Below the pieces are notes generated by a model. That model did not search any database. It saw only the letters and a list, made by a program, of their open reading frames with translations, and had not been told where the DNA came from. Shown here in pieces: positions 1-8,897 of a stretch of DNA of 51,011 bases. Origin of the DNA: Acidimicrobiales bacterium (GTDB taxonomy: Bacteria; Actinomycetota; Acidimicrobiia; Acidimicrobiales; SZUA-35). The position numbers and the translations under genes are program-made. Each line of letters opens with the position of its first letter. Positions within the stretch are counted from its first letter, which is position 1. The stretch is from assembly GCA_024644005.1 (NCBI GenBank), contig JAHELU010000004.1:1-51011 (forward strand), in the 5' to 3' direction.

Positions 1-238
1 CGGGGGCGACAATGCGGTCAACGAGACGATGATGGCCAAGCACATCGCAACGGAGACCGTCGGACGGGTGGTGGACAGCGCCATCCAGACCGTCGGCGGG
101 CAGGCGCTGACCGGCGGCCATCCCCTCGAGTCCATCCATCGGCGGGTCCGCAGCCTCCGCCTGGCCGAGGGCACGAGCGACGTCCTTGCGCTGAACGTGG
201 CCAGGGGCCGGCTCGACCTCGACCTCGGCCGCATCTGA
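1..238 (+). CDS. Acyl-CoA dehydrogenase family protein, C-terminal fragment (runs off the left edge)
   Basis: MAKHIATETVGRVVDSAIQTVGGQAL...RRVRSLRLAEGTSDV matches the ACAD C-terminal pattern (AxQxxGGxG ... RxxxIxEGTxE); frame is open to the window edge. Confidence 0.85.
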   Translation, partial: GGDNAVNETMMAKHIATETVGRVVDSAIQTVGGQALTGGHPLESIHRRVRSLRLAEGTSDVLALNVARGRLDLDLGRI

Positions 239-262
239 GCGGGTCGCCGTGGTCGACGTCGG

Positions 263-862
263 TCAGGGGTTGTTGCTCGTCTGCTCGGCATCGAACGTCA
301 GCGTCGCCGTGGTCGCGCCACCCTGACCGCTGGTGGCAGCCAGCGGGAGCGTCACGTTCAGGCAGAGGTCTTCAAACGCCGCCGGGCCGAGGGTGCGGTC
401 GCCCGGATCGGCTCCCGGAGCGTTCGAGCCGAACAGCGCCGTGGTGGCCACGGTCCCGAGCGGGCCGCTGTAGAGCGTGGCGCCGCCCACGTTCCAGTTG
501 GCATCGTCGCAGCTCGCCACGCCGCTGCGGACGGTCAGGACGAGCTCTGCGGCCAGTGTGTCCTCGGTCGTCGTCGAGGTCGCGGCATAACGGAGATCGA
601 GGGATCCTGCGTTGGTGATCCGCAGCGGTGCCGTCACCTGGTCGCCCGGCACCATGGTCGACATCGTGACGACGGCGCTCGCCGGGCTGGCGGCTATGTC
701 GATCGTGCCGGTCGTGAACGCGTTCGATCCGACGGCCTCGCTGTCGGTGAAGAGCGCGAGCGACGACACGGTGACGGTGGCCACCCCGACCAACAGCACG
801 GCCAGGGTCAGGACGATCTTGATGAGACCGACACTGCTGGTCTCGGGTCTTGTCTCGCGCAT
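263..862 (-). CDS. TasA/CalY (camelysin)-like secreted protein with SipW-type signal peptide (subunit 1, subtype B), 199 aa
   Basis: ATG at 862 with GGAGGAG RBS at 871-877; hydrophobic leader ending SSLA|LFTD, then NAFTTGTIDI, MVPGD, ITNAGSLDLRY and C-terminal LTFDAEQ, all typical of TasA-family proteins. Confidence 0.85.
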   Translation of the reverse strand: MRETRPETSSVGLIKIVLTLAVLLVGVATVTVSSLALFTDSEAVGSNAFTTGTIDIAASPASAVVTMSTMVPGDQVTAPLRITNAGSLDLRYAATSTTTEDTLAAELVLTVRSGVASCDDANWNVGGATLYSGPLGTVATTALFGSNAPGADPGDRTLGPAAFEDLCLNVTLPLAATSGQGGATTATLTFDAEQTSNNP

Positions 863-1548
863 GGTCCGTTCTCCTCCAGTCCTATCGACCGGGCCCGATC
901 GGTGCTGAGCGCGCGAAGGTGGGGATGGTTCGATCGGCCCAGGGGGAACCGGTCCAGTCGAGCGCGCCGGTGTCGCCAGATCCGGCGCAGCACCAGCGTC
1001 GACTGCACCCCCACCGCCAGCAGCACCACCCCACCGCCGATCAGCGGGGACCCCAGGGCGAGCAGCAACCGCCCGACCCCGGGGACGACCCATCGCCCGA
1101 CGAGCTCCCTGGGTCGGAGGTGGTAGGGGGCTGCATCGATCTGGCGGTTGGCGTCGCCCTGCGTGGTGGCGTAGACGTGGCTTCCGACGCGGTTCAGGTC
1201 GACGACCCGATGGGTGATCGTGCTTCGCCCTTCCCGCCGCATCACGAGGATGTCGCCGACCTCGACCGCGCCGGTCGGCTCGGCGATCACCAGCGAGCCG
1301 GTCGGGACCGCCGGTGTCATGCTCCCCGTCGTGACGACGACCAGTCGGTAACCGGCGGCCAGCGCGCCGACCCCGACGACGGCCAGCCCGATGGACACGA
1401 CACCGACGGTGCGGCAGGCGACCCGGCCGATCCGTCCGCTCTCTCCGATCCGGCCGATCCGTCTGCTCCCGCCCATCCATCGCGGTCGCTCGATCGATGG
1501 CTCCGGGGGGCTCGACGATCGCCGTCCCCGCCGGCGAGTCGCCGTCAC
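808..1548 (-). CDS. sipW: Signal peptidase I, SipW/S26B (ER-type)
   Basis: N-terminal TM, VVTTGSMTP (catalytic Ser), GDILV, ITHRVV (His), TQGDAN...D, C-terminal TM; GTG start overlaps the stop of the upstream TasA-like gene (GTGA). Confidence 0.88.
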   Translation of the reverse strand: MTATRRRGRRSSSPPEPSIERPRWMGGSRRIGRIGESGRIGRVACRTVGVVSIGLAVVGVGALAAGYRLVVVTTGSMTPAVPTGSLVIAEPTGAVEVGDILVMRREGRSTITHRVVDLNRVGSHVYATTQGDANRQIDAAPYHLRPRELVGRWVVPGVGRLLLALGSPLIGGGVVLLAVGVQSTLVLRRIWRHRRARLDRFPLGRSNHPHLRALSTDRARSIGLEENGPCARQDPRPAVSVSSRSS

Positions 1549-2135
1549 GAGTCGTCGCTCTCGATGGCGTGCTCCGCGGCCACGGTCAGCTCGTGGCGCG
1601 ACGCCACGCCCTGGGCCGAATCGGGGGCGTCGATGGCCATCGTGGCGGCAAAGCAGACCAGCTCGACCGCCCCAGGATCGATGGTGCGATCGCCGGGATC
1701 CTCACCGCTGGCGGGATCGCCGAGGAGGGCCACGGAGCCGGCCGTCAGCCGTCGGTCACTCACGAGGGCCTCGGCCGGCGACGGCCCCTGCTCGCAGGCC
1801 GAGGCCGTCCAGATGTCCCAGCTGAGCAGGCCCGTCAACGGCTGGGCCGATGTCTCGAAGCTCAGTGAGTAGCGCAGCGGCAGCGAACCGGCGTTGAGCA
1901 GCTCGACCGATCCGACCATCCGATCCCCCGGCGCGATGTTCGACACGACGATCGGGGTCGTCCTCGTCCCGACCTCTATGTCCAGGGTCCCCGCATCGAG
2001 GCGATAGGTGCCGAGGCGCTGGGCGGCCCCGAACGCGGCCTGTCCCCGCTGGGCCCTCACGAGGATCACCCCGGGGACGATCAGTGCCGCCGTGACGACG
2101 AGAGCGCCGATGACGACGAGCGCCTGCCGCCTCAT
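1545..2135 (-). CDS. TasA/CalY-like secreted protein (subunit 2, subtype B), 196 aa
   Basis: ATG at 2135 after GGAAGG; leader MRRQALVVIGALVV...GQA|AFG, then AGTLDI, IAPGD, LLNAGSLPLRY, DPGDRT; clear paralog of 263-862. Confidence 0.8.
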   Translation of the reverse strand: MRRQALVVIGALVVTAALIVPGVILVRAQRGQAAFGAAQRLGTYRLDAGTLDIEVGTRTTPIVVSNIAPGDRMVGSVELLNAGSLPLRYSLSFETSAQPLTGLLSWDIWTASACEQGPSPAEALVSDRRLTAGSVALLGDPASGEDPGDRTIDPGAVELVCFAATMAIDAPDSAQGVASRHELTVAAEHAIESDDS

Positions 2136-2179
2136 TGGTCTACCTTCCGATCCACAGCGACGACGGTCCAGCCAGGGAT

Positions 2180-2198
2180 GTTCCGCCGGAGGCGGAAC
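2180..2198. other. Perfect 8-bp hairpin GTTCCGCC-GGA-GGCGGAAC in the inter-module spacer (possible terminator or mRNA stability element)
   Basis: Inverted repeat read directly in the 94-nt gap between 2135 and 2230; no U-tract. Confidence 0.45.
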
Positions 2199-2229
2199 TC
2201 CGTGAGGGGCTGCTCCGCAGCGCCGGCGC

Positions 2230-2844
2230 TCACGACGGGACCGCCTCCCAGACGAAGTCGGCGGTCGACGACCGACCGACCGCCTGTCGCTCGTCCAGCA
2301 CCTCGAACTGGAACCGGAACGACACCGTGGCCCGCCCGTTGCGGATCGTGCCCACCGGGGTGGCGCCCTGGGCGGCCAGCTGGGAGAGGGTGCCGGAGAA
2401 CAAGCGCTCGTCCGGCCGGAAGTCACCGCACGAGTCGAACCCTGCGCCGGTGCCCTTCTCGACATGCACACGGAGGTACCGAGCCAACTCGCCCGTCGTG
2501 TTGGCGACGAGCGTCAGCTCGACCGGGAGTATGGTCCCGGCGTAGTCGATCCGGATGCACCGCTCCACGGGCTGCTCGGGGCCCATGTTCTCGAGGCGGA
2601 CCAGCGATCGGCCCTGATCGTCGTCGACGAGGGTGATGGTCCCCGTCTCGAACGAGTTACCGCTCACCGTGCCCTCCTGGCGCAACGTCTCGGCCGACGT
2701 GGTGACCACGAGGGTGGCGACGATCAGCGACGAGATGGCGGCGGCGAACGCCCGGCCCGTCGACTTGGCCAGCCGCCGCTCCTGGTGCAGTCCGGTCTCC
2801 TCCGCCGATTCTGATGCCAGCACGTCGTCCAGTGAGCGGGCCAT
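2230..2844 (-). CDS. TasA-like secreted/membrane-anchored protein (subunit 3, subtype A), 204 aa
   Basis: ATG overlaps the stop of the fusion gene (TGATG); hydrophobic segment then GNSFETGTITL, MGPEQPVERCIRIDYAGT, DSCGDFR, ADFVWEA. Confidence 0.75.
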   Translation of the reverse strand: MARSLDDVLASESAEETGLHQERRLAKSTGRAFAAAISSLIVATLVVTTSAETLRQEGTVSGNSFETGTITLVDDDQGRSLVRLENMGPEQPVERCIRIDYAGTILPVELTLVANTTGELARYLRVHVEKGTGAGFDSCGDFRPDERLFSGTLSQLAAQGATPVGTIRNGRATVSFRFQFEVLDERQAVGRSSTADFVWEAVPS

Positions 2845-5768
2845 CAGGCGGTCTCCACCCGATCCCGACCCCGCTCGACCATGCCGTCGATGTCCGACGC
2901 AGGGAGCGGACGGTGGAACACGAAGCCCTGGACCAGGTGACATCCGACCCCGGCGACCGTCGACAGCTGATCCTCGGTCTCGACGCCCTCGGCGATGACC
3001 ACGAGGTCGAGCTTCCGAGCGAGGTCGACGATCGACTCCAGGACGATCCGCTCCGTCTCCGAGTCGGCGCTGTTGACGACCAGCATGCGGTCGAGCTTCA
3101 CCCCGACCACCGGCAGCTTGTGGAGGAAGGCCAGCGACGTCTGCCCCTCGCCGAAGTCGTCGAGCAGCAGGCCCACCCCCAGCTCCCTCAGCGCATGCAT
3201 GTTGTCGAGGATCGCTCCCTGGTCGGGCCTGACCAGGCGCTCGCTGATCTCGATGAAGAGTCGGTCCGGCCCGAAGCCGGACTCGGCGATCGCCGTCGTC
3301 ACGTTCTCCATGAGCTCGGCCGACATCAGCTCTTCCGGTGAGGCGTTCACCGTCACGAACACGGATGAGTCGGGGTCGATGGTCCTCCACCTGGCCCCGT
3401 CCGATGCCGCCCGGTGGAGGATCCAGCGATTCAGGCGGGGCCCGATCCCCACGTCGTCGGCGAGGGCGATGAGCTCGTCCGGCCTCACGGGCCCGTAGAC
3501 CGGATGCGTCCAACGGATGAGGGCCTCGACACCCACCAGGCGATCGATCGCAACATCGATCACCGGCTGGTAGAGCAGGGTCAGCGAGCCGTCGTCCACC
3601 GCCGTCGCCAGGTCGACTGCGAGCTGGGCCCGACGCCCCAGCTCGACGTCGAGCTCCTGGTCGTAGACGACGTACCCGGCCGACCCACGGGCCCGTTTCT
3701 TGGCGCGATACATCGCGACGTCGGCTCGTCGCAGGAGCTCGCTCTGGTCGATGCCGGCCTCTGCGACGGCGATGCCGACGCTGGCGGCGATCGACACCGT
3801 CTCCTGGCCGAGCAGGAACGGTTCCGCCAATCGCTGCTGGATCCGGGTCGCCAGCTCGCTGGCCCGCTGGGGGGGCACCCTACCCTGCAGCAACACGGTG
3901 AACTCGTCACCGCCGAGGCGGGCCACCAGGTCACCGGCCCTCACGGCCTCCCCCAGCCGGGTGGCAACCAGCTTCAGGAGCTCGTCGCCGGCCTCGTGGC
4001 CGAGACGGTCGTTGACGGGCTTGAAGCCGTCGAGGTCGAGGAACAGCAGGATGGGGCTGGCGTCGGGGCTCCGCAGCTCCTCCTCCAGAGCCCCGAGGAG
4101 GCGCGTGCGGTTGGGGAGGCCGGTGAGGGCATCGTGCATCGCCTGGTGCTCGAGCTCGTCGCTGACCGTGGTGAGCTCACCGAGGAGCCGGTCGTTGCGA
4201 AGGGCTACCGCTGCCTGGCCGGCCAGTAGGCGGAGCGCCTCGAAGCGATGGTTGTCGGCTGTGCCGTCGCGACTCCCGGCCCGTAGGACCAGTCGGGCTC
4301 CTGGTTCGTCGTTGACGGTCAGCGCCACCACCGAGGCCAGTCTCGCCTCCTCGAGGGCGGCCGACTCGGCCGGCTCCGGGTCGTCGGCGGTCACGAGGAC
4401 GGCGGAGGAGTCGAGATCGACCGGCCGCAACCCGCTCCCTGCAGCGCCGGGCGCAGGCAGGGTGCCGTCGCCGTCGACGGCCATGATCTGCCACGGACCG
4501 ACGCCGTCGCCGGTGACGATGTCGGCCACGTCGAACCCCAGCTCGAGCGATGCATCGACGATGGCCGAGACGTGGAGATCGCCCAGCCGCGTCACCTCGT
4601 GACCCGTGGCCATGACCCGCTCGAGCATGTGGCCCCGCAGCACCGCTTGGTCGGTCGCTCCTCGCTGCGTCAGCACGTCTCCCAGCAGCTGCTCTGCCAG
4701 ATAGCTGCCGGGCACCACGACGAGGAACAGGACGCTGAGCTGGTCGAGCACCCGTTCCAGCTCGGTGATCAGCGGTTCGGGGCCAGGTACCAGCTCCGAC
4801 ATCGCAATCCGGGCCCCGAGGGTGATCACGGTCAGGATCATCCAGTGCACGAGGGCCCCGACGAGGCCGAATCGCATCGCCGCCTCGATCACGGGCAGGG
4901 CGAACAGCACCCAGCCGATCCCGGACGTCCCGGCCGCCGTGGCCAGGAAGACCACGAGCACCGTGTCGACGGCGAGCTCCAGCAGTGCCGCCCACCTCGT
5001 CTCGATCTTCCATCGCCTGGTCGCAACGATCGACCAGAGATTGACCGCTCCGAGGGCGCCGAGGCCGATCGCCAGCATCGGGACTCGACCGGAGTCGGTG
5101 CCGGCAACGTCGAACCGTGACGGGTCGATGGCGAACTGGACGATCATCAGCACGCCGACGAGGACGCGGACCCGCCACAGGCCCACCTGGGCCGTCGGGA
5201 GCTGGCGCTCGGCGGACAGGTCATGGCGGCGCCGCAGCCGCTGGACGGCGGAGGCGCCCACCACTGCGAAGCTCCCGATCGTCATCGCCCCCCAGGCGAC
5301 GAGCGGAACCACGTCGGCGCGAGCGAACCAGACCACCGGAAGGCCGAGCAGTGGCACCACGAGCTGACCTGTCCCCGCCACCGCTTCCGGGCGGACCGAA
5401 TCGACGTCTGGCGTCGGGTTGCCGTCGCCCTTCGTCACGTACGCGTCGTCCTCGACCGAGAAGATCCGGTGGACGATCAGCTCACCGCCCGGTCGCTCGA
5501 AGACGATGACGGCCCGCTGGGCCAGCAGCTCCGCAGGGTGCTCGTCGATGAGGAGCACGTCTCCCGCCTGCAGCGTCGGCCGCATCGATCCGCTGGTAAC
5601 GACGACCGGCGACCACCCGGCCAGGACCATGCCGAGCACGACCCACAGAGCCATGAGCACGACCAGGTAGACGTAGAGCCAGGCAATCAGCACGGCGGTG
5701 GGCACGACGGCCCGAGCTGCGAGACGCCCCACCCGCCCGAGGGGCCACGAGCGCACGGAGGCCCTCAT
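2844..5768 (-). CDS. Fusion protein: SipW/S26B signal peptidase + multi-TM region + GAF-like region + GGDEF diguanylate cyclase + EAL phosphodiesterase, 974 aa
   Basis: One uninterrupted frame from ATG 5768 (ATGA overlap with the upstream gene). Peptidase motifs VTSGSMRP, IVHRI, TKGDGN...D; several hydrophobic helices; LAGQAAVALRN; HDALTGLPNR, DLDGFKPVND, RAGD-x5-GGDEF; YQP, VEALIRW, IEISE, DDFGEG, KLDR, AEGVET, QGF. Confidence 0.9.
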   Translation of the reverse strand: MRASVRSWPLGRVGRLAARAVVPTAVLIAWLYVYLVVLMALWVVLGMVLAGWSPVVVTSGSMRPTLQAGDVLLIDEHPAELLAQRAVIVFERPGGELIVHRIFSVEDDAYVTKGDGNPTPDVDSVRPEAVAGTGQLVVPLLGLPVVWFARADVVPLVAWGAMTIGSFAVVGASAVQRLRRRHDLSAERQLPTAQVGLWRVRVLVGVLMIVQFAIDPSRFDVAGTDSGRVPMLAIGLGALGAVNLWSIVATRRWKIETRWAALLELAVDTVLVVFLATAAGTSGIGWVLFALPVIEAAMRFGLVGALVHWMILTVITLGARIAMSELVPGPEPLITELERVLDQLSVLFLVVVPGSYLAEQLLGDVLTQRGATDQAVLRGHMLERVMATGHEVTRLGDLHVSAIVDASLELGFDVADIVTGDGVGPWQIMAVDGDGTLPAPGAAGSGLRPVDLDSSAVLVTADDPEPAESAALEEARLASVVALTVNDEPGARLVLRAGSRDGTADNHRFEALRLLAGQAAVALRNDRLLGELTTVSDELEHQAMHDALTGLPNRTRLLGALEEELRSPDASPILLFLDLDGFKPVNDRLGHEAGDELLKLVATRLGEAVRAGDLVARLGGDEFTVLLQGRVPPQRASELATRIQQRLAEPFLLGQETVSIAASVGIAVAEAGIDQSELLRRADVAMYRAKKRARGSAGYVVYDQELDVELGRRAQLAVDLATAVDDGSLTLLYQPVIDVAIDRLVGVEALIRWTHPVYGPVRPDELIALADDVGIGPRLNRWILHRAASDGARWRTIDPDSSVFVTVNASPEELMSAELMENVTTAIAESGFGPDRLFIEISERLVRPDQGAILDNMHALRELGVGLLLDDFGEGQTSLAFLHKLPVVGVKLDRMLVVNSADSETERIVLESIVDLARKLDLVVIAEGVETEDQLSTVAGVGCHLVQGFVFHRPLPASDIDGMVERGRDRVETA

Positions 5769-6391
5769 GGTCTGGCCTCGATCACGATCCAGAACTCGGT
5801 GCCGAGGCCCTGGGCGGCATTGTCGTCGTCGACCTCCACGATGGTCCGGAAGGTGGTGGTGAGCCCGGATCCGATGTGGGAGCTGAGATCGATACCGTCG
5901 GCGAACGACCCGTGGTCGATCGTCAGGTCGGTGGATCTTCCCTGATAGAGCCGTTCGCTGGTTCGGAAGTCGGCGCAGTCGGTCGCCTCTCCGGTTCCGA
6001 GCTCGAACGTGACCGTGACGAGGTCGCCGAGTCCGGTGTCGGCCCCGCGGTGGCCGTGGAGCCGGATCCGAGCGTCGTCGAGCGTTCCCGAGTAGGTGAG
6101 CTGGAGGCACCGCTCGATGGGCCGCCCCGGGAACACCCTGTCGTCGTCGACCAGCAGCTCGACGGCGGCACTGCCGTCGGAGCCGGTCAAGTCGAGATCG
6201 ATCGCAACGGTTTGGAAGAGGCTGTTCGTGTTCTCGGTCGACGCCGAGAACCTTGCCGAGGCGGTCCGGGCACCGGACCAGACGACGACCAGTGCCGCAA
6301 GCAGGAACAGGGACGCGGCGACGACAGCGCCCTGCGCCCCACCTCGTCGGAGACGAGAGGGAACAGCTCCAGACCCTTCCGATCCAGTAAT
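5765..6391 (-). CDS. TasA-like secreted protein (subunit 4, subtype A); start codon uncertain
   Basis: Leader RLRRGG...VVAASLFLLAALVVVWSGARTASA|RFSA, then NSLFQTVAIDL, FPGRPIERCLQLTYSGT, TDCADFR; paralog of 2230-2844. No in-frame ATG/GTG/TTG ahead of the leader; 6391 is an ATT downstream of AGGAG (6402-6406). Confidence 0.7.
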   Translation of the reverse strand: MTGSEGSGAVPSRLRRGGAQGAVVAASLFLLAALVVVWSGARTASARFSASTENTNSLFQTVAIDLDLTGSDGSAAVELLVDDDRVFPGRPIERCLQLTYSGTLDDARIRLHGHRGADTGLGDLVTVTFELGTGEATDCADFRTSERLYQGRSTDLTIDHGSFADGIDLSSHIGSGLTTTFRTIVEVDDDNAAQGLGTEFWIVIEARP

Positions 6392-6523
6392 GGCGATCAG
6401 GCTCCTGTTCAGCGAATTCGCTGTACCCGTCGGCAGCTCGATCGCCAGTGTGACGATCCGCCGGATCCGCAGCCGGGCGGCGCTCGGTCGACGGCATGTT
6501 GGTTCGGTTGTCCAACCAGGGCC

Positions 6524-7777
6524 ATGATTGTGGTCGTGATCCTCCGCCAGATCGCCGTCGCCGTCGCCGTCGCTGTCGCTGTGCTCGTGGTCGTAGCGAA
6601 CTGTGGTCGAGGTGACCTGGAGGCCACGGGACCGGCGCAGGGTGGCACCTCCTCTTCCACCACCACCGCCGCCCTGACCACGGCCGCTGGAGCGACGTCG
6701 ACCCCCGGCCCGACGGCGGGCTCGACGTCGACCGACCTCGAAGCGACGACCACGACCAGCCGGCAGCGCGGCTTCACGATGGCCTTCACCGGGGATCTGC
6801 TGCTCCACAGTCGGGTGAACGCGATGGCGGCGGCCAATGCGGGCGGCCAGCCCGGGCGCGACTACGACTACCGCCCGATGCTCCAGCCCATCCGACCGCT
6901 GGTCGAGGCGGCCGACTGGGCAGTCTGCCACATGGAGGTCAACCTCTCGGCCGACGGCACTCGGTTGGAGCCGTACCCCACGTTCCGGGCTCCGGGTCAG
7001 ATCGCAGTCGACATCGCCGACATCGGCTACGACTCCTGCAGCGTGGCCTCGAACCACATCCTCGATCACGGCATCGAAGGCGTTGCCGAGACCTTACAGG
7101 TACTCGACCGAGCGGGGCTCGGGGCCACCGGAGCGGCACGATCGAGGGCCGAGGCGTCGCGCCAGATCTGGATCGAGCTCGGCGGTCTCCGTGTCGCCCA
7201 CCTCGCCTACACCTACTGGTTCAACGGGTTCACCGTCCCCGCAGACGCCTCGTGGACGTCGAACGGCATCGACGAGGACCGAATCCTGGCCGATGCCTCG
7301 GCGGCCCGTGCCGACGGTGCGGACTTCGTGGTCGTCTCGCTGCACTGGGGTGACCAGTACGACCACCGCCCCAACCGGCAGCAGCGAGAGCTCGGTCCCC
7401 GGGTCCTCTCATCGCCGGACGTCGATCTGCTGGTGGGCCACCACGCCCACGTCGTGCAGCCGATCGACAACCTCGATGGCGAGTGGTTGATCTACGGTCT
7501 CGGCAACCTCCTGTCCAACAGCCCTCAGCCCGCTCGCCGGGACGAGTTGCTGGTGCTGGTCACCGTCTCGGAGGGCCCGACCGGTGAGTTGACGTCCGAG
7601 CTGGAGGTGATCCCACTCCATCTGGATCACTCGACCCTCACGGTGCATCCCAGCAACCCGCTGACCAGGCCACCATCGACGGCGCCCGATCTCGCCGCCG
7701 ACCTCGACGCCAGCTGGGCCCGGGTCAACCGGATCCTCGACACCGGGACCGGCCGGGACGCGCTCGTCATCGGCTGA
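6524..7777 (+). CDS. CapA/PgsA family (poly-gamma-glutamate capsule biosynthesis-like) metallophosphatase-fold protein, secreted or lipoprotein
   Basis: Signal peptide ending VANC, Thr/Ser-rich linker, FTGDLLLH, CHME, ASNHILDHG, SLHWG, GHHAHV, IYGLGN. Confidence 0.88.
   Translation: MIVVVILRQIAVAVAVAVAVLVVVANCGRGDLEATGPAQGGTSSSTTTAALTTAAGATSTPGPTAGSTSTDLEATTTTSRQRGFTMAFTGDLLLHSRVNAMAAANAGGQPGRDYDYRPMLQPIRPLVEAADWAVCHMEVNLSADGTRLEPYPTFRAPGQIAVDIADIGYDSCSVASNHILDHGIEGVAETLQVLDRAGLGATGAARSRAEASRQIWIELGGLRVAHLAYTYWFNGFTVPADASWTSNGIDEDRILADASAARADGADFVVVSLHWGDQYDHRPNRQQRELGPRVLSSPDVDLLVGHHAHVVQPIDNLDGEWLIYGLGNLLSNSPQPARRDELLVLVTVSEGPTGELTSELEVIPLHLDHSTLTVHPSNPLTRPPSTAPDLAADLDASWARVNRILDTGTGRDALVIG
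6554..6583 (+). repeat. Hexamer tandem repeat (GCCGTC)3(GCTGTS)2 encoding Ala-Val runs in the CapA signal peptide
   Basis: Read directly; in-frame unit length. Confidence 0.7.
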
Positions 7778-7919
7778 GCCATGACGGGGCTCGTCGGCTG
7801 CGCCTGGCGCCGCTCGACCGACCACCGTCCCCATTCGTTCGTACGACAGGAAACGCGCGTCGAAATCGGCCATGATGACGACGGGCGATTCGAACCGGCG
7901 GCTCGAAGGATGGCGGACA

Positions 7920-8897
7920 ATGGGTCAGATGAAGGCGGTCGTCTACGACGAGTACTGCTCGCCCGACGGCTTGGAGCTGCGTGCGGTCGAGCGGCCCGTC
8001 ATCGGTGACGATGCGGTCCTGGTCCGGGTGATGGCCGCATCGGTCAACCCAGTCGACTGGCACCGTCTGACCGGCACACCGAGCATCGCCCGACTGGAGG
8101 CCGGGCTGCGGTCGCCGAAACGGCACATACCGGGATCGGACCTGGCGGGCCGGGTGGAGGCGATCGGCTCGGCGGTGGCCGGGTTCAAGCCGGGCGACGA
8201 GGTGTTCGGTACCGCCGAGGGCAGCCTCGCCGAGTACGTCGCCGTCACCGAGGACCGCATCGCCCACAAGCCGGTCAACCTGTCGATCGAGCAGGCGGCG
8301 GTGGTGCCGGTGGCAGGGCTCACCGCACTGCAGGGCCTCCGTGACTGCGCCAGGCTCGAGGCCGGCCAGAGGGTCCTGATAAACGGCGCTTCGGGCGGTG
8401 TCGGGACCTTCGCCGTCCAGATCGCAAAGGCATTCGGCGCCGAGGTGACCGGGGTCTGCAGCGGCGGCAACGTCGAGATGGTGCGGGCCATCGGCGCGGA
8501 CGACGTCGTCGACTACACCGCGACGGACTTCGAGGAGCGGGAGCAGCACTACGACGTGCTGTTCGACACGGTCGGCAACCGTCGGCTGTCGACCTGCCGA
8601 CGGACCCTGAAGCCGAAGGGGGTGTACGTCATGGTCGGTGGCCCGAGGACGAATCGCTGGTTGGGGCCCGTGGCCCGGGTCGTTGCCGGGCGACTGCTGT
8701 TCGCGCTGACCAGCGAGAAGTTCTCCACCTTCGTGGCCAAGGACGACGAGGACGATCTGCGGTTCCTGCGCGATCTGCTCGAGTCGGGGTCGGTCGTCCC
8801 GGTCATCGACCGTCGCTACGACCTGAGCGACACACAGCAAGCCTTCCAGTACTGGGAGCGGGGTCGGACGAGCGGCAAGATCCTCGTCACGGTCTGA
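7920..8897 (+). CDS. NAD(P)-dependent medium-chain dehydrogenase/reductase (quinone oxidoreductase-like)
   Basis: MKAVVYDEY, AASVNPVD, PGSDLAG, INGASGGVGTFAVQIAK, VIDRRY, GKILV; start 7920 or 7929. Confidence 0.9.
   Translation: MGQMKAVVYDEYCSPDGLELRAVERPVIGDDAVLVRVMAASVNPVDWHRLTGTPSIARLEAGLRSPKRHIPGSDLAGRVEAIGSAVAGFKPGDEVFGTAEGSLAEYVAVTEDRIAHKPVNLSIEQAAVVPVAGLTALQGLRDCARLEAGQRVLINGASGGVGTFAVQIAKAFGAEVTGVCSGGNVEMVRAIGADDVVDYTATDFEEREQHYDVLFDTVGNRRLSTCRRTLKPKGVYVMVGGPRTNRWLGPVARVVAGRLLFALTSEKFSTFVAKDDEDDLRFLRDLLESGSVVPVIDRRYDLSDTQQAFQYWERGRTSGKILVTV

What the first reader, a model, noticed from the sequence alone, without database searches (positions are those of the whole stretch)
263..6391. 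Six-gene fibre locus built from two 'subunit-SipW-subunit' triplets
Seen, in transcription order: TasA-like 4 > SipW-GGDEF-EAL > TasA-like 3, a 94-nt spacer, then TasA-like 2 > stand-alone SipW > TasA-like 1. Within each triplet genes overlap (ATGA at 5765-5768, TGATG at 2842-2846, GTGA at 1545-1548, 55-nt overlap at 808-862), implying translational coupling. Established: this mirrors the tapA-sipW-tasA layout of Bacillus subtilis; TasA polymerises by donor-strand exchange without sortase. Inference: a sortase-independent pilus/biofilm fibre system in an Acidimicrobiia-like actinobacterium, with a sensing/initiating module (fused peptidase) and a structural module (subunit 1 has the strongest RBS and the most canonical A|xFTD site, so is the likely major subunit).
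Basis: partly seen in the sequence, partly recalled or inferred. Interest (0 to 1): 0.87.

Follow-up and report, generated by a model that had tools for sequence, protein, structure and literature searches.

The report
TasA-like fibre operon with signalling peptidase
An uncultured Acidimicrobiia bacterium carries a six-gene operon for four relatives of the Bacillus biofilm fibre protein TasA and two dedicated signal peptidases, one of them fused to the enzymes that make and break the biofilm messenger c-di-GMP.

Summary
The six minus-strand genes are real (GC3 0.81-0.92) and lie as described, overlaps and 94-nt spacer included. Four ~200-aa secreted proteins belong to the TasA superfamily. T1 and T2 pass Pfam Peptidase_M73. 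T3 and T4 form a divergent, large, unnamed branch (hhalign; the T3 AlphaFold model's best PDB match is the TasA fibre). Both peptidases are Sec11/SipW-type with invariant Ser-His-Asp. One is fused to about six extra TM helices, a GAF-like region and intact GGDEF and EAL domains. A T1 trimer model shows N-terminal donor-strand contacts. The fusion occurs in 39 of 87 other genomes of the family.

The 'two triplets' are not a unit. Paralogy is T4~T3 and T2~T1. T3 and T2 overlap in relatives. One relative splits the locus between T2 and the second peptidase. In all 18 related loci with that flank, the second peptidase carries a ~1000-aa DUF2341/LamG extension before T1. The window's 'stand-alone SipW-T1' junction is a lineage-specific deletion, also seen in Logan contigs of two runs. 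T4 has no ATG/GTG/TTG start (ATT).

TasA homologues in Actinomycetota, and c-di-GMP genes near TasA-like loci, are already in print. The peptidase-GGDEF-EAL fusion was not found in print. Verdict: new variant of a known kind.

The parts
5765..6391 (-). T4: TasA-superfamily subunit of the divergent T3/T4 branch (208 codons from ATT). N-terminal TM helix, then ...TASA|RFSASTENTNSLF...; invariant Cys pair; C-terminus ...EARP. It has no canonical start codon.
   Evidence: for the ORF and start. hhalign to T3 99.0% (E 2e-18), to T2 94.2%, to T1 66.7%. Pfam M73 only at E=0.082. No variant listed at 6389-6391 in contigs of X1, X2 and X4 that cover the place (45 further differences were not shown).
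2844..5768 (-). FUS: 974-aa fusion of a SipW/Sec11-type signal peptidase, a polytopic membrane region, a GAF-like region, GGDEF and EAL.
   Evidence: Full-length relatives.
5316..5681 (-). FUS peptidase domain (residues ~30-151), preceded by TM1 (residues 26-44). Catalytic candidates are Ser61 (SGSM), His100 (VHRI) and Asp115 (KGDGN).
   Evidence: TIGR02228 at 75.5-79.1 bits, cut-off 51.85. Human SEC11C/SEC11A at E 3e-7, with SGSM, HR and KGD-N aligned. The three residues are invariant in 46 of 46 aligned FUS-type and S2-type sequences.
4164..5312 (-). FUS residues ~153-535: about seven hydrophobic segments (153-362) followed by a soluble GAF-like region (~365-535).
   Evidence: Kyte-Doolittle scan. 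No Pfam hit at E<=1 and no PDB sequence hit. ESM Atlas look-alikes are membrane plus GAF proteins, score 0.94-0.96 with 186-205 shared features; this is a lead only.
3687..4142 (-). FUS GGDEF domain (residues 543-694): GGDEF at 619 and RAGD (RxxD I-site position) at 610.
   Evidence: Pfam GGDEF 139.8 bits. Motifs located. Aligned to the GGDEF-EAL structures 5m3c (E 1.5e-83) and 4rnh.
2907..3614 (-). FUS EAL domain (residues 719-954): EAL 748, EISE, DDFGEG 870, VKLD, EGVE 927, VQGF.
   Evidence: Pfam EAL 199.4 bits. Motifs; they are matched position for position in 5m3c.
2230..2844 (-). T3: TasA-superfamily subunit of the divergent branch (204 aa). It has a conserved ~30-aa hydrophilic leader (M-A-R-x-L), then a TM helix (residues 32-50), and no A-x-F motif. 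It may be a retained membrane anchor.
   Evidence: hhalign to T1 88.8% and to T4 99.0%. AlphaFold pLDDT 84.4. Best PDB match is the TasA fibre 8aur_A, E 1.8e-6, TMq 0.51, followed by donor-strand pilins 7pnb and 7ueg and type 1 pili.
2136..2229 (-). 94-nt spacer between T3 and T2, with an 8-bp G+C-rich hairpin at 2180-2198 (no U tail) and GGAAGG before the T2 ATG.
   Evidence: The fold is not better than shuffles (z = -0.38). No terminator-like hit on the minus strand. The spacer is not conserved: T3 and T2 overlap in several relatives.
1545..2135 (-). T2: TasA/M73-type subunit (196 aa); signal peptide, then ...GQA|AFGAAQRLGTYRLDAGTLDI.
   Evidence: Pfam M73 27.2 bits, cut-off 22.5. hhalign to T1 99.3%, E 4e-20. 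Orthologue alignment.
808..1548 (-). S2: short SipW-type peptidase (246 aa) with TM helices at 48-66 and 161-187 and catalytic candidates Ser76, His113 and Asp132. Only residues ~43-193 are homologous to relatives. The last ~53 residues are a deletion-derived tail that reads into the T1 start.
   Evidence: TIGR02228 57.4 bits. BLASTP to the 1204-aa and 1250-aa relatives ends at ...LRRIW, residue ~191-193. Triad. Junction bridged by Logan contigs X1 record 2 (112-2190, 8 differences) and X2 record 10 (375-1113, 0 differences).
263..862 (-). T1: best-conserved TasA/M73-type subunit (199 aa). Signal peptide, then invariant S-L-A|L-F-T-D. The predicted mature N-terminus (residues 37-54, window 701-754) is the modelled donor strand. 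GGAGG lies 10 nt before the ATG.
   Evidence: Pfam M73 42.4 bits, TIGR04088 20.3. Profile hits TasA 5of1/8aur at E 9e-6. AlphaFold pLDDT 69.7, top Foldseek hits TasA 5of2 and 5of1. Trimer model. Alignment.
6392..6523 (.). 132-nt divergent intergenic region between T4 and a PGA_cap lipoprotein gene (6524-7777, + strand). It is the presumed promoter region of the operon.
   Evidence: No sigma-70-like consensus and no Rfam family found, so the promoter is inferred only.

Best explanation
This is one operon for a Sec- and SipW-dependent, sortase-independent extracellular fibre or matrix of the TasA superfamily, in a reduced, lineage-specific form.

Proposed steps:
1. Four pre-subunits are exported: T1 and T2 of the TasA/M73 type, and T4 and T3 of a divergent branch.
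2. T1, T2 and T4 carry a signal peptide that ends A|x-F. This site suits an ER/archaeal-type Ser-His-Asp signal peptidase rather than LepB.
3. They are cut by the two operon-encoded peptidases (inferred).
4. The freed N-terminus of T1 inserts as a donor strand beside the C-terminal strand of the next subunit, building the fibre (modelled, not shown).
5. T2 and T4 are likely minor subunits. T3, with its long conserved cytoplasmic leader and no A-x-F site, is likely a membrane-retained base (inferred).
6. The first peptidase sits on the same polypeptide as a polytopic membrane region, a GAF-like module and apparently active GGDEF and EAL domains. Subunit processing and c-di-GMP turnover are therefore physically coupled. 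Either secretion or envelope state sets local c-di-GMP, or c-di-GMP (RxxD site) gates the peptidase. The direction is unknown.

In relatives the second peptidase is the N-terminal domain of a ~1200-aa protein. Its extracellular DUF2341/LamG part follows an internal signal-like segment (GVAWAL-F-T...N-x-F-G-T). This genome has deleted that part, leaving a complete 2-TM SipW core directly before T1.
For: Genes and coupling: six co-oriented ORFs with coding-type GC3, three 1- or 4-nt overlaps and one 55-nt overlap.

Subunit family:
- Pfam M73 is above cut-off for T1 and T2; TIGR04088 is above cut-off for T1.
- The T1 profile hits TasA 5of1 and 8aur at E 9e-6.
- hhalign links all four: T2-T1 99.3%, T4-T3 99.0%, T2-T4 94.2%, T1-T3 88.8%, T4-T1 66.7%.
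- AlphaFold T1 (pLDDT 69.7): the three best PDB matches are TasA (5of2 at E 4e-5).
- AlphaFold T3 (pLDDT 84.4): the best match is the TasA fibre 8aur_A at E 1.8e-6; the S. acidocaldarius 0406 filament (7pnb), archaeal bundling pili (7ueg) and chaperone-usher pilins follow.
- The T3/T4 profile finds 2466 cluster representatives at E<=1e-3 and 1469 at E<=1e-10. Of 60 aligned members, 12 hit PF12389 and 3 hit TIGR04088.

Polymerisation: three copies of T1 residues 37-199 gave a complex prediction score of 0.77 against a best of 3 controls of 0.02. The mark was reached by 20 of 30 proteins solved as pairs of one chain and by 1 of 23 solved as single chains. The runs agree in at least 94% of contacts and the partner's pLDDT is at least 88. 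Residues 40-51 of one copy pair antiparallel with 183-192 of the next. A like complex (the TasA fibre) is solved, so the pass may come from memory: it shows likeness, not binding.

Peptidases: TIGR02228 is above cut-off for both. SEC11A/C hit at E 3e-7. Ser, His and Asp are invariant in 46 of 46 sequences.

c-di-GMP module: GGDEF, RxxD and all EAL motifs are present and align with 5m3c and MorA.

Conservation:
- Full-length FUS occurs in 16 of 24 same-genus genomes, in 39 of 87 other genomes of the family (7 of 14 genera, own genus included), and in 1 of 400 other genomes sampled across the class (G334).
- 90 further clusters in the 5.8-billion-protein set match; all but one carry a precomputed GGDEF domain and most carry EAL too.
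- The order T4-FUS-T3 holds in 22 of 23 related loci; the 23rd is cut by a contig end.

From an abstract seen in a search listing (PMC10269814): TasA has Phe at P2', which LepB cuts poorly and SipW handles.
Against: - No fibre, cleavage site, enzyme activity or transcript has been observed for any member of this clade.
- T4 lacks a canonical start codon in this genome, so it may be poorly made or not made at all.
- T3 has no A-x-F site and no family hit.
- No TapA-like partner was recognised.
- The T1 model is only moderately confident (pLDDT 69.7 from a 10-row alignment), and its TM-scores to TasA are 0.38-0.47.
- One of the three complex runs scored 0.37, and the calibration used two copies, not three.
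- This genome has lost the large extension of the second peptidase. The PilZ-domain protein that precedes the locus in 10 of 12 same-genus loci was not found in it, though the MAG is only 83% complete. The system may therefore be impaired here.
- Which peptidase cuts which subunit is unknown. Gene position gives conflicting hints: T2 travels with FUS in G018.
Confidence: 0.75

Rival explanations
1. One reading: the locus consists of two equivalent 'subunit-SipW-subunit' modules (a sensing/initiating triplet and a structural triplet), each mirroring tapA-sipW-tasA.
For: In this window each peptidase gene is flanked by two subunit genes. The 94-nt spacer separates the halves. Genes inside each half overlap. 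The two subunits flanking each peptidase are each other's closest paralogues, which could hint at peptidase-specific substrates.
Against: - The paralogy pattern (T4~T3, T2~T1) is not what a duplicated triplet gives.
- T3 and T2 overlap by 4 nt in at least 4 of 12 same-genus loci by my heuristic starts.
- 18 of 18 related loci with the flank have ~3 kb between the second SipW domain and T1.
- The one naturally split locus (G018) breaks between T2 and S2, not between T3 and T2.
- G054 keeps T4-FUS-T3-T2 with no S2 or T1 within the fetched 19 kb.
- No TapA-like protein was recognised.
Confidence: 0.08
2. The locus is decaying in this genome: a remnant of the family's larger system that no longer makes a fibre.
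For: - ATT stands where orthologues have ATG or GTG at the T4 start.
- A ~3-kb deletion removed the DUF2341/LamG part of the second peptidase and left a 53-residue unrelated tail.
- The PilZ-domain neighbour was not found in this genome.
- The fusion is missing from 8 of 24 same-genus genomes and from 48 of 87 other family genomes, so loss is common.
Against: - All six frames are open, with coding-type GC3 of 0.81-0.92.
- Catalytic triads and the GGDEF and EAL motifs are intact.
- The retained S2 core has both TM helices and is about the length that I recall for B. subtilis SipW (~190 aa).
- T1 keeps a strong RBS and the invariant SLALFTD.
- The same arrangement and the ATT appear in near-identical contigs from runs of three studies, with only scattered substitutions.
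- AUU can serve as a start codon (recalled: E. coli infC).
Confidence: 0.15
3. The small proteins are not fibre subunits but secreted or cell-surface camelysin-type (M73) proteases, or monomeric surface or spore-coat-like proteins.
For: The Pfam family is named 'Camelysin metallo-endopeptidase'. TasA also exists as a soluble monomer (5of1 and 5of2 are the top fold matches for T1).
Against: - I saw no HExxH-type metal site when reading the four sequences (read by eye, not a motif scan).
- The best fold match of T3 is the polymerised TasA chain, followed by other donor-strand filaments.
- The T1 trimer model places the mature N-terminus as a donor strand.
- Four paralogues next to dedicated peptidases resemble fibre loci with major and minor subunits (B. 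cereus tasA/calY: title and abstract in the listing, PMC4292775).
Confidence: 0.07

Closest known systems
Bacillus subtilis tapA-sipW-tasA operon and the TasA donor-strand fibre (PDB 8aur, 5of1; PMC9674648, passages read)
   Same: A dedicated ER/archaeal-type signal peptidase is encoded among genes for jelly-roll subunits with an A|x-F cleavage region. The fold matches TasA. N-terminal donor-strand contacts are modelled. No sortase signal was seen.
   Different: - There are four TasA-type paralogues in two subfamilies, and no recognisable TapA.
- There are two peptidases.
- Scores lie far below the Bacillus equivalog cut-offs: TasA NF046066 32.5 against 450, SipW NF046067 52.8 against 190.
- One peptidase is fused to GGDEF-EAL. 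Here signalling is enzymatic, not a short C-terminal tail. The bifunctional B. subtilis SipW is known to me only from the title of Terra et al. 2012, seen in a reference list; the paper is not held.
Bacillus cereus sipW-tasA-calY region (PMC4292775; title and abstract start seen)
   Same: One sipW lies beside more than one TasA-family paralogue, without tapA.
   Different: That is a Firmicute system with a single stand-alone SipW and two paralogues. It has no c-di-GMP domain on the peptidase.
TasA superfamily of archaeal and bacterial biomatrix filaments (AbpA 7ueg, Sulfolobus thread 7pnb, CanA, AbpX; PMC9245690 passages; bioRxiv 10.64898/2026.01.04.697558 passages)
   Same: The jelly-roll subunits are built for donor-strand complementation, and these chains appear among the T3 fold matches. 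The preprint states three relevant things: the central TasA cluster holds Bacillota and Actinomycetota; the loci often sit with a dedicated SPase I, some with ten TM helices; and diguanylate cyclases and HD-GYP genes occur nearby.
   Different: In the passages I read, the c-di-GMP enzymes are neighbouring genes, not part of the peptidase polypeptide. Acidimicrobiia, the T3/T4 branch and the peptidase-DUF2341/LamG fusion are not mentioned.
LapD-LapG control of the LapA adhesin (recalled knowledge)
   Same: The logic is similar: a membrane GGDEF-EAL protein links cytoplasmic c-di-GMP to an extracytoplasmic protease that acts on a biofilm adhesin.
   Different: - LapD is a degenerate receptor that sequesters a separate cysteine protease.
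- Here the protease is a Ser-His-Asp signal peptidase on the same chain.
- Both c-di-GMP domains look catalytically intact.
- The NCBIfam LapD score is 134.6 against a cut-off of 1020, so this is not a member.
Tandem GGDEF-EAL enzymes 5m3c and MorA 4rnh (P. aeruginosa is recalled)
   Same: The C-terminal 440 residues align end to end (E 1.5e-83 and 4e-81), with all motifs kept.
   Different: Their N-terminal sensor parts are unrelated. None of them carries a signal peptidase.

Membership tests
TasA / Peptidase_M73 (PF12389) superfamily | Match to the family HMM above the gathering score | tested here: met
   Met for T1 (42.4 bits) and T2 (27.2 bits), cut-off 22.5. NOT met for T3 (no hit) or T4 (13.2 bits, E 0.082). 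T3 and T4 are joined only by hhalign (88.8-99.0%), and by 12 of 60 members of their branch hitting PF12389.
TasA / Peptidase_M73 (PF12389) superfamily | TasA-like jelly-roll fold | tested here: met
   T1 model: the top three PDB matches are TasA (E 4e-5 to 4e-4, TM 0.38-0.47). T3 model: the top match is the TasA fibre chain (E 1.8e-6, TMq 0.51).
TasA / Peptidase_M73 (PF12389) superfamily | Polymerisation by N-terminal donor-strand complementation | tested here: inconclusive
   The model passes: 0.77 against a best control of 0.02, with donor-strand geometry. A like complex is solved, so this shows likeness only. Only T1 was tested.
Bacillus TasA equivalog (NF046066) | Score above the equivalog cut-off (450 bits) | tested here: not met
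   T1 32.5 bits, T2 17.5 bits. These are distant relatives, not orthologues of TasA.
SipW-dependent signal peptide (TIGR04088) | HMM above cut-off (19 bits); A|x-F-x-D/x...N-x-F-x-x-G-T-[IL]-D-[IL] | tested here: met
   Met by HMM for T1 only (20.3 bits). By eye, T2 (QA|AFG) and T4 (SA|RFS) keep Ala at P1 and Phe at P2'. T3 does not. Actual cleavage is not testable here.
ER/archaeal-type signal peptidase I (TIGR02228; SipW/Sec11 type) | HMM above cut-off, and Ser-His(-Asp) instead of Ser-Lys | tested here: met
   S2 scores 57.4 bits and FUS 75.5 bits, cut-off 51.85. The bacterial-type model TIGR02227 gives only 14.6 bits for S2. SGSM, HR and GD-N align to SEC11A/C. The triad is invariant in 46 of 46 sequences.
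Bacillus SipW equivalog (NF046067) | Score above 190 bits | tested here: not met
   S2 scores 52.8 bits.
tapA-sipW-tasA operon | A TapA accessory or anchor protein encoded in the operon | tested here: inconclusive
   No TapA-named family appeared among the NCBIfam or Pfam hits of the six proteins at E<=1. I did not check that the libraries hold a TapA model. T3, or in relatives the DUF2341/LamG extension, might play that part; this is inference.
GGDEF diguanylate cyclase (PF00990) | HMM above cut-off; GG[DE]EF active site; RxxD I-site | tested here: met
   139.8 bits; GGDEF at 619; RAGD at 610. Activity is not testable here.
EAL phosphodiesterase (PF00563) | HMM above cut-off; EAL, N, E-x-x-E, DDFG, K, EGVE and Q motifs | tested here: met
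   199.4 bits. All motifs align with 5m3c. Activity is not testable here.
LapD-type c-di-GMP receptor (NF045673) | Equivalog score (1020 bits); degenerate GGDEF/EAL; HAMP; LapG-binding periplasmic domain | tested here: not met
   134.6 bits, reflecting generic GGDEF-EAL likeness. The motifs are intact, not degenerate. This is an analogy in logic only.

The most novel reading that the evidence does not exclude
The peptidase-GGDEF-EAL protein is a one-chain transducer. Either c-di-GMP (through the RxxD site or the EAL domain) switches the extracytoplasmic signal peptidase on or off, or engagement of fibre pre-subunits by the peptidase switches cyclase and phosphodiesterase output. Fibre assembly and the biofilm messenger would then be wired together without a transcription step: LapD/LapG logic collapsed into a signal peptidase. 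In relatives, the second peptidase would be a self-processing zymogen-like fusion. It would cut its own internal signal-like segment (GVAWAL|F-T...) and release a ~950-aa DUF2341/LamG tip or anchor adhesin whose new N-terminus can act as a donor strand for T1. This genome would be a natural deletion mutant of that adhesin.
Probability: 0.2. Interest if true: 0.8.

Novelty: new variant of a known kind. Interest (0 to 1): 0.58.

Why it matters
TasA-type donor-strand fibres are emerging as a cross-domain way to build biofilm matrices, but their regulation is known only for Bacillus, where it is transcriptional. This clade puts c-di-GMP synthesis and breakdown on the same polypeptide as the dedicated subunit peptidase. 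It occurs in 90 further protein clusters and in 39 of 87 other genomes of one Acidimicrobiia family. That makes a direct, post-translational link between second-messenger signalling and fibre export testable with a few constructs. The clade also shows a large unnamed sister branch of TasA (2466 cluster representatives) that current family models miss. For this particular window the lesson is more modest: the tidy 'two triplets' are the scar of a deletion in a larger conserved operon.

Tried and rejected
- A longer T4 from GTG 6808 (347 aa) was rejected. It would overlap the divergent PGA_cap gene, and coding-type GC3 in that frame stops near 6300-6400. TTG 6190 was rejected because it would remove the conserved signal/TM segment.
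- A sequencing or assembly error as the cause of the ATT start or of the S2-T1 junction was rejected as far as contigs can show. X1 record 2 (112-2190) and X2 record 10 (375-1113) bridge the junction. Contigs of X1, X2 and X4 cover 6389-6391 with no listed difference. X2 may be the source sample, and 45 further differences were not shown.
- Promoter and terminator consensus scans found no promoter-like site. The single terminator-like site is on the + strand, and shuffles give 1.2 on average. Rfam at E<=1 found nothing in 1-8000, so no c-di-GMP riboswitch. The spacer hairpin at 2180-2198 folds no better than shuffles.
- Expression: no RNA holder was listed by the look-up of sequencing runs. 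Nothing can be said either way.
- The T3 profile against PDB sequences gave no meaningful hit. FUS residues 201-535 against PDB sequences gave none either.
- The DUF2341/LamG extension and the PilZ-domain protein of relatives were sought in the own genome and not found with those queries. The genome is 83% complete, so absence is not shown.
- Literature searches: 'SipW'+'GGDEF' (12 papers, all on Firmicutes or unrelated topics); 'signal peptidase'+GGDEF+EAL+fusion+Acidimicrobiia; SipW+Actinobacteria+TasA; Ilumatobacter+c-di-GMP; TasA-like+actinobacterial names. No listed title or abstract describes a signal peptidase fused to GGDEF-EAL or this locus. The library lacks most subscription journals, and supplements were closed. 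The SI of PMC9245690 and Table S3 and Data S1 of the AbpX preprint may list related loci.
That the deletion is the derived state rests on parsimony: 18 of 18 related loci, including one from another family.

Full report
WHAT IS THERE. The window is the first 51 kb of contig C18 of a metagenome-assembled genome (4.46 Mb, 314 contigs, 83% complete), so the locus touches a contig end. Six minus-strand ORFs fill 263-6391. Each has third-position GC of 0.81-0.92.
- ATGA at 5768-5765 (T4 stop / FUS start);
- TGATG at 2846-2842 (FUS stop / T3 start);
- GTGA at 1548-1545 (T2 stop / S2 start);
- a 55-nt overlap of S2 and T1 at 808-862;
- a 94-nt gap at 2136-2229.
The codon at 6391 is ATT, 10 nt after AGGAG. 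It aligns with the M-T start of orthologues. Logan contigs of three runs from three studies cover the place without a listed difference.

THE SMALL PROTEINS. T1 and T2 pass Pfam Peptidase_M73 (42.4 and 27.2 bits; cut-off 22.5), and T1 passes the SipW-cognate signal model TIGR04088 (20.3; cut-off 19). T3 and T4 match nothing curated. With alignments of orthologues from relatives, profile-profile comparison gives T2-T1 99.3%, T4-T3 99.0%, T2-T4 94.2%, T1-T3 88.8% and T4-T1 66.7%. They are one superfamily in two branches.

The T1 profile finds TasA in the PDB by sequence (E 9e-6). The T1 AlphaFold model (pLDDT 69.7) has TasA as its three best fold matches. A profile of T3 plus T4 finds 2466 cluster representatives (E<=1e-3) among 1.84 billion proteins. 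Of 60 aligned members, 12 touch PF12389 and 3 touch TIGR04088. T3/T4 therefore belong to a large, essentially unnamed sister branch of TasA. With that 60-row alignment, T3 folds at pLDDT 84.4. Its best PDB match is the polymerised TasA chain 8aur_A (E 1.8e-6, TMq 0.51), followed by other donor-strand filaments (7pnb, 7ueg, type 1 pili, cannulae).

T1, T2 and T4 keep Ala at P1 and Phe at P2' (SLA|LFTD, GQA|AFG, ASA|RFS). T3 instead has a conserved ~30-residue hydrophilic leader, a TM helix and no such site. All four families keep two invariant cysteines.

POLYMERISATION. Three copies of mature T1 (residues 37-199) scored 0.77, 0.37 and 0.77 (median 0.77) against a best of 3 controls of 0.02. 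The mark was reached by 20 of 30 proteins solved as pairs of one chain and by 1 of 23 solved as single chains. The runs agree in at least 94% of contacts and the partner's pLDDT is at least 88. Residues 40-51 of one copy run antiparallel along 183-192 of the next, which is donor-strand geometry. Because the TasA fibre is solved, this may be memory of a like complex: it shows likeness, not binding.

THE PEPTIDASES. S2 and the first ~150 residues of FUS pass TIGR02228 (57.4 and 75.5 bits; cut-off 51.85). The bacterial-type model scores 14.6. FUS aligns with human SEC11A/C (E 3e-7) through SGSM, HR and KGD-N. The three residues (FUS Ser61, His100, Asp115; S2 Ser76, His113, Asp132) are invariant in 46 of 46 aligned sequences.

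After the peptidase core, FUS has about six more hydrophobic segments. Then comes a soluble stretch whose ESM-Atlas look-alikes are membrane GAF proteins (0.94-0.96; a lead only). It ends with a GGDEF-EAL tandem that aligns end to end with 5m3c and MorA. GGDEF (619), RxxD (610), EAL (748), EISE, DDFGEG (870), VKLD, EGVE (927) and QGF are all in place. Both c-di-GMP domains therefore look competent.

CONSERVATION AND THE REAL SHAPE OF THE LOCUS. The FUS N-terminal 489 residues match full length in three samples:
- 16 of 24 same-genus genomes;
- 39 of 87 other genomes of the family, in 7 of 14 genera, own genus included;
- 1 of 400 other genomes sampled across the class (G334, another family of the same order). 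Thirteen more, among them the unpublished G353, match the SipW domain alone.
In the 5.8-billion-protein set, 90 further clusters match; all but one have a precomputed GGDEF domain and most have EAL too. Where a source names them, the names are only 'signal peptidase I' or 'EAL domain-containing protein', from Acidimicrobiia, Acidimicrobiales, Ilumatobacter sp. or Actinomycetota.

I fetched 23 related loci. T4-FUS-T3 is kept in 22 of them (one is cut by a contig end), and T2 follows in 21. In every one of the 18 loci that hold the second peptidase with its downstream flank (including a second site in G018), about 3 kb lies between the SipW domain and T1. In 12 of 19 loci with an S2 match, the peptidase frame runs on without a stop for 1130-1206 further codons. 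Three more are cut by locus ends and four are interrupted. The added part is made of:
- an Arg-rich linker;
- a second TM segment ending GVAWAL-[FY]-T...N-x-F-G-T-x-x-C-F-D, which resembles the subunits' own cleavage region;
- repeats;
- DUF2341 and Laminin_G_3 domains.

The window's S2 is homologous only up to ...LRRIW (residue ~193). Its last 53 residues match nothing, and the extension was not found elsewhere in the genome. Contigs X1 record 2 and X2 record 10 bridge the junction. The 'stand-alone SipW' directly before T1 is thus a deletion derivative. This rests on parsimony; no rooted tree was made.

Three further points weigh against the triplet reading. By my heuristic start codons, T3 and T2 overlap by 4 nt in at least 4 of 12 same-genus loci. 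G018 carries T4-FUS-T3-T2 at one site and PilZ protein-S2long-T1 240 kb away. A 1012-aa PilZ-domain protein precedes T4 in 10 of 12 same-genus loci but was not found in this genome. Together with the paralogy pattern, this removes the 'two triplets' as a conserved or duplicated unit.

HOW IT PROBABLY WORKS. Shown:
- gene order and coupling;
- family and fold of the subunits;
- type and intact triads of the peptidases;
- intact c-di-GMP motifs;
- conservation of the operon.
Inferred:
- Sec export;
- cleavage after Ala with Phe at P2' by the operon's SipW-type enzymes. The abstract of PMC10269814, seen, says this site is poorly cut by LepB and is handled by SipW in Bacillus;
- T1 as the main donor-strand polymer, T2 and T4 as minor subunits, and T3 as a possible membrane base;
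- coupling of processing to c-di-GMP by FUS, in an unknown direction.
I put 0.75 on this overall reading and 0.15 on the view that the system is decaying in this particular genome.

WHAT IS KNOWN. TasA donor-strand fibres and the tapA-sipW-tasA operon are established (PMC9674648, passages; PMC9245690, passages). A 2026 preprint (10.64898/2026.01.04.697558; passages) makes three relevant statements. The central TasA cluster includes Actinomycetota. TasA-superfamily loci often carry a dedicated SPase I, some with ten TM helices. Diguanylate cyclase and HD-GYP genes occur in bacterial AbpX neighbourhoods. So an actinobacterial TasA-like locus with a dedicated peptidase, and a loose link to c-di-GMP, are not new.

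I did not find three things in print (supplements closed):
- a signal peptidase fused to GGDEF-EAL;
- the T3/T4 branch as such;
- the peptidase-DUF2341/LamG fusion of the relatives.
The closest functional analogy is LapD/LapG (recalled). FUS is not a LapD member (134.6 bits against 1020).

VERDICT. This is a new variant of a known kind: a conserved, uncharacterised domain architecture inside a known type of fibre operon, seen here in a reduced form. Interest 0.58.

Noticed in passing
L028-L046 (for example L034:5984-9598, L029:9786-13538): In relatives the second SipW-type peptidase is the N-terminal domain of a single 1130-1250-aa ORF. After an Arg-rich linker comes a second TM segment ending GVAWAL-[FY]-T...N-x-F-G-T, like the subunits' cleavage region, then repeats, DUF2341 and Laminin_G_3. 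This could be a peptidase fused to its own substrate or adhesin.
   Followed up: partly
L026:14872-17910 and its homologues in L028-L034, L036, L037, L044, L049: A ~1000-aa protein whose only recognised domain is PilZ (c-di-GMP binding) lies just upstream of T4, or of S2-long in G018. It occurs in 10 of 12 same-genus loci. It was not found in the window's genome.
   Followed up: partly
L027 and L049 (G018, contig C4): One near-complete relative has the locus in two pieces 240 kb apart: T4-FUS-T3-T2, and PilZ protein-S2long-T1-NHL protein. G054 (L045) shows T4-FUS-T3-T2 with no S2 or T1 within 19 kb.
   Followed up: partly
window 6524-7777 (+): A divergently transcribed lipoprotein-like PGA_cap (CapA-type) gene scores 217.8 bits. 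Relatives have the PilZ-protein gene on the operon strand at this position instead.
   Followed up: partly
window 6553-6786: Summed contig depth jumps to 230-1131 in all four laid runs, against 0.3-60 in every other bin. The stretch is a GAC/GGC-rich simple repeat, coding the Ala-Val run of the lipoprotein signal on the + strand. It evidently matches many organisms.
   Followed up: no
window 263-862, 1545-2135, 2230-2844, 5765-6391 and orthologues (A1-A4): Each of the four subunit families keeps exactly two invariant cysteines (T1 C118/C167, T2 C114/C161, T3 C96/C139, T4 C95/C139) and an invariant C-terminus (T1 ...E-Q-T-x-N-N-P; T3/T4 ...E-x-x-P, mostly EARP). These may mark a disulfide and a terminal contact or cross-link site.
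   Followed up: no
window 2180-2198 (-): A perfect 8-bp G+C-rich hairpin (3-nt loop, no U tail) sits in the T3-T2 spacer. The whole spacer folds no better than shuffles, and it is absent where T3 and T2 overlap in relatives.
   Followed up: partly
window 1-291 (-): An open minus-strand frame with coding-type GC3 in 1-150 runs off the contig start. In relatives an NHL/DUF7948 protein of ~1000 aa follows T1. A contig in run X4 extends 740 nt beyond window position 1.
   Followed up: no
L031 (G022:C8): T2, T3, FUS and S2-long are each split into two frames in this relative. The cause could be assembly errors or a decaying copy.
   Followed up: no
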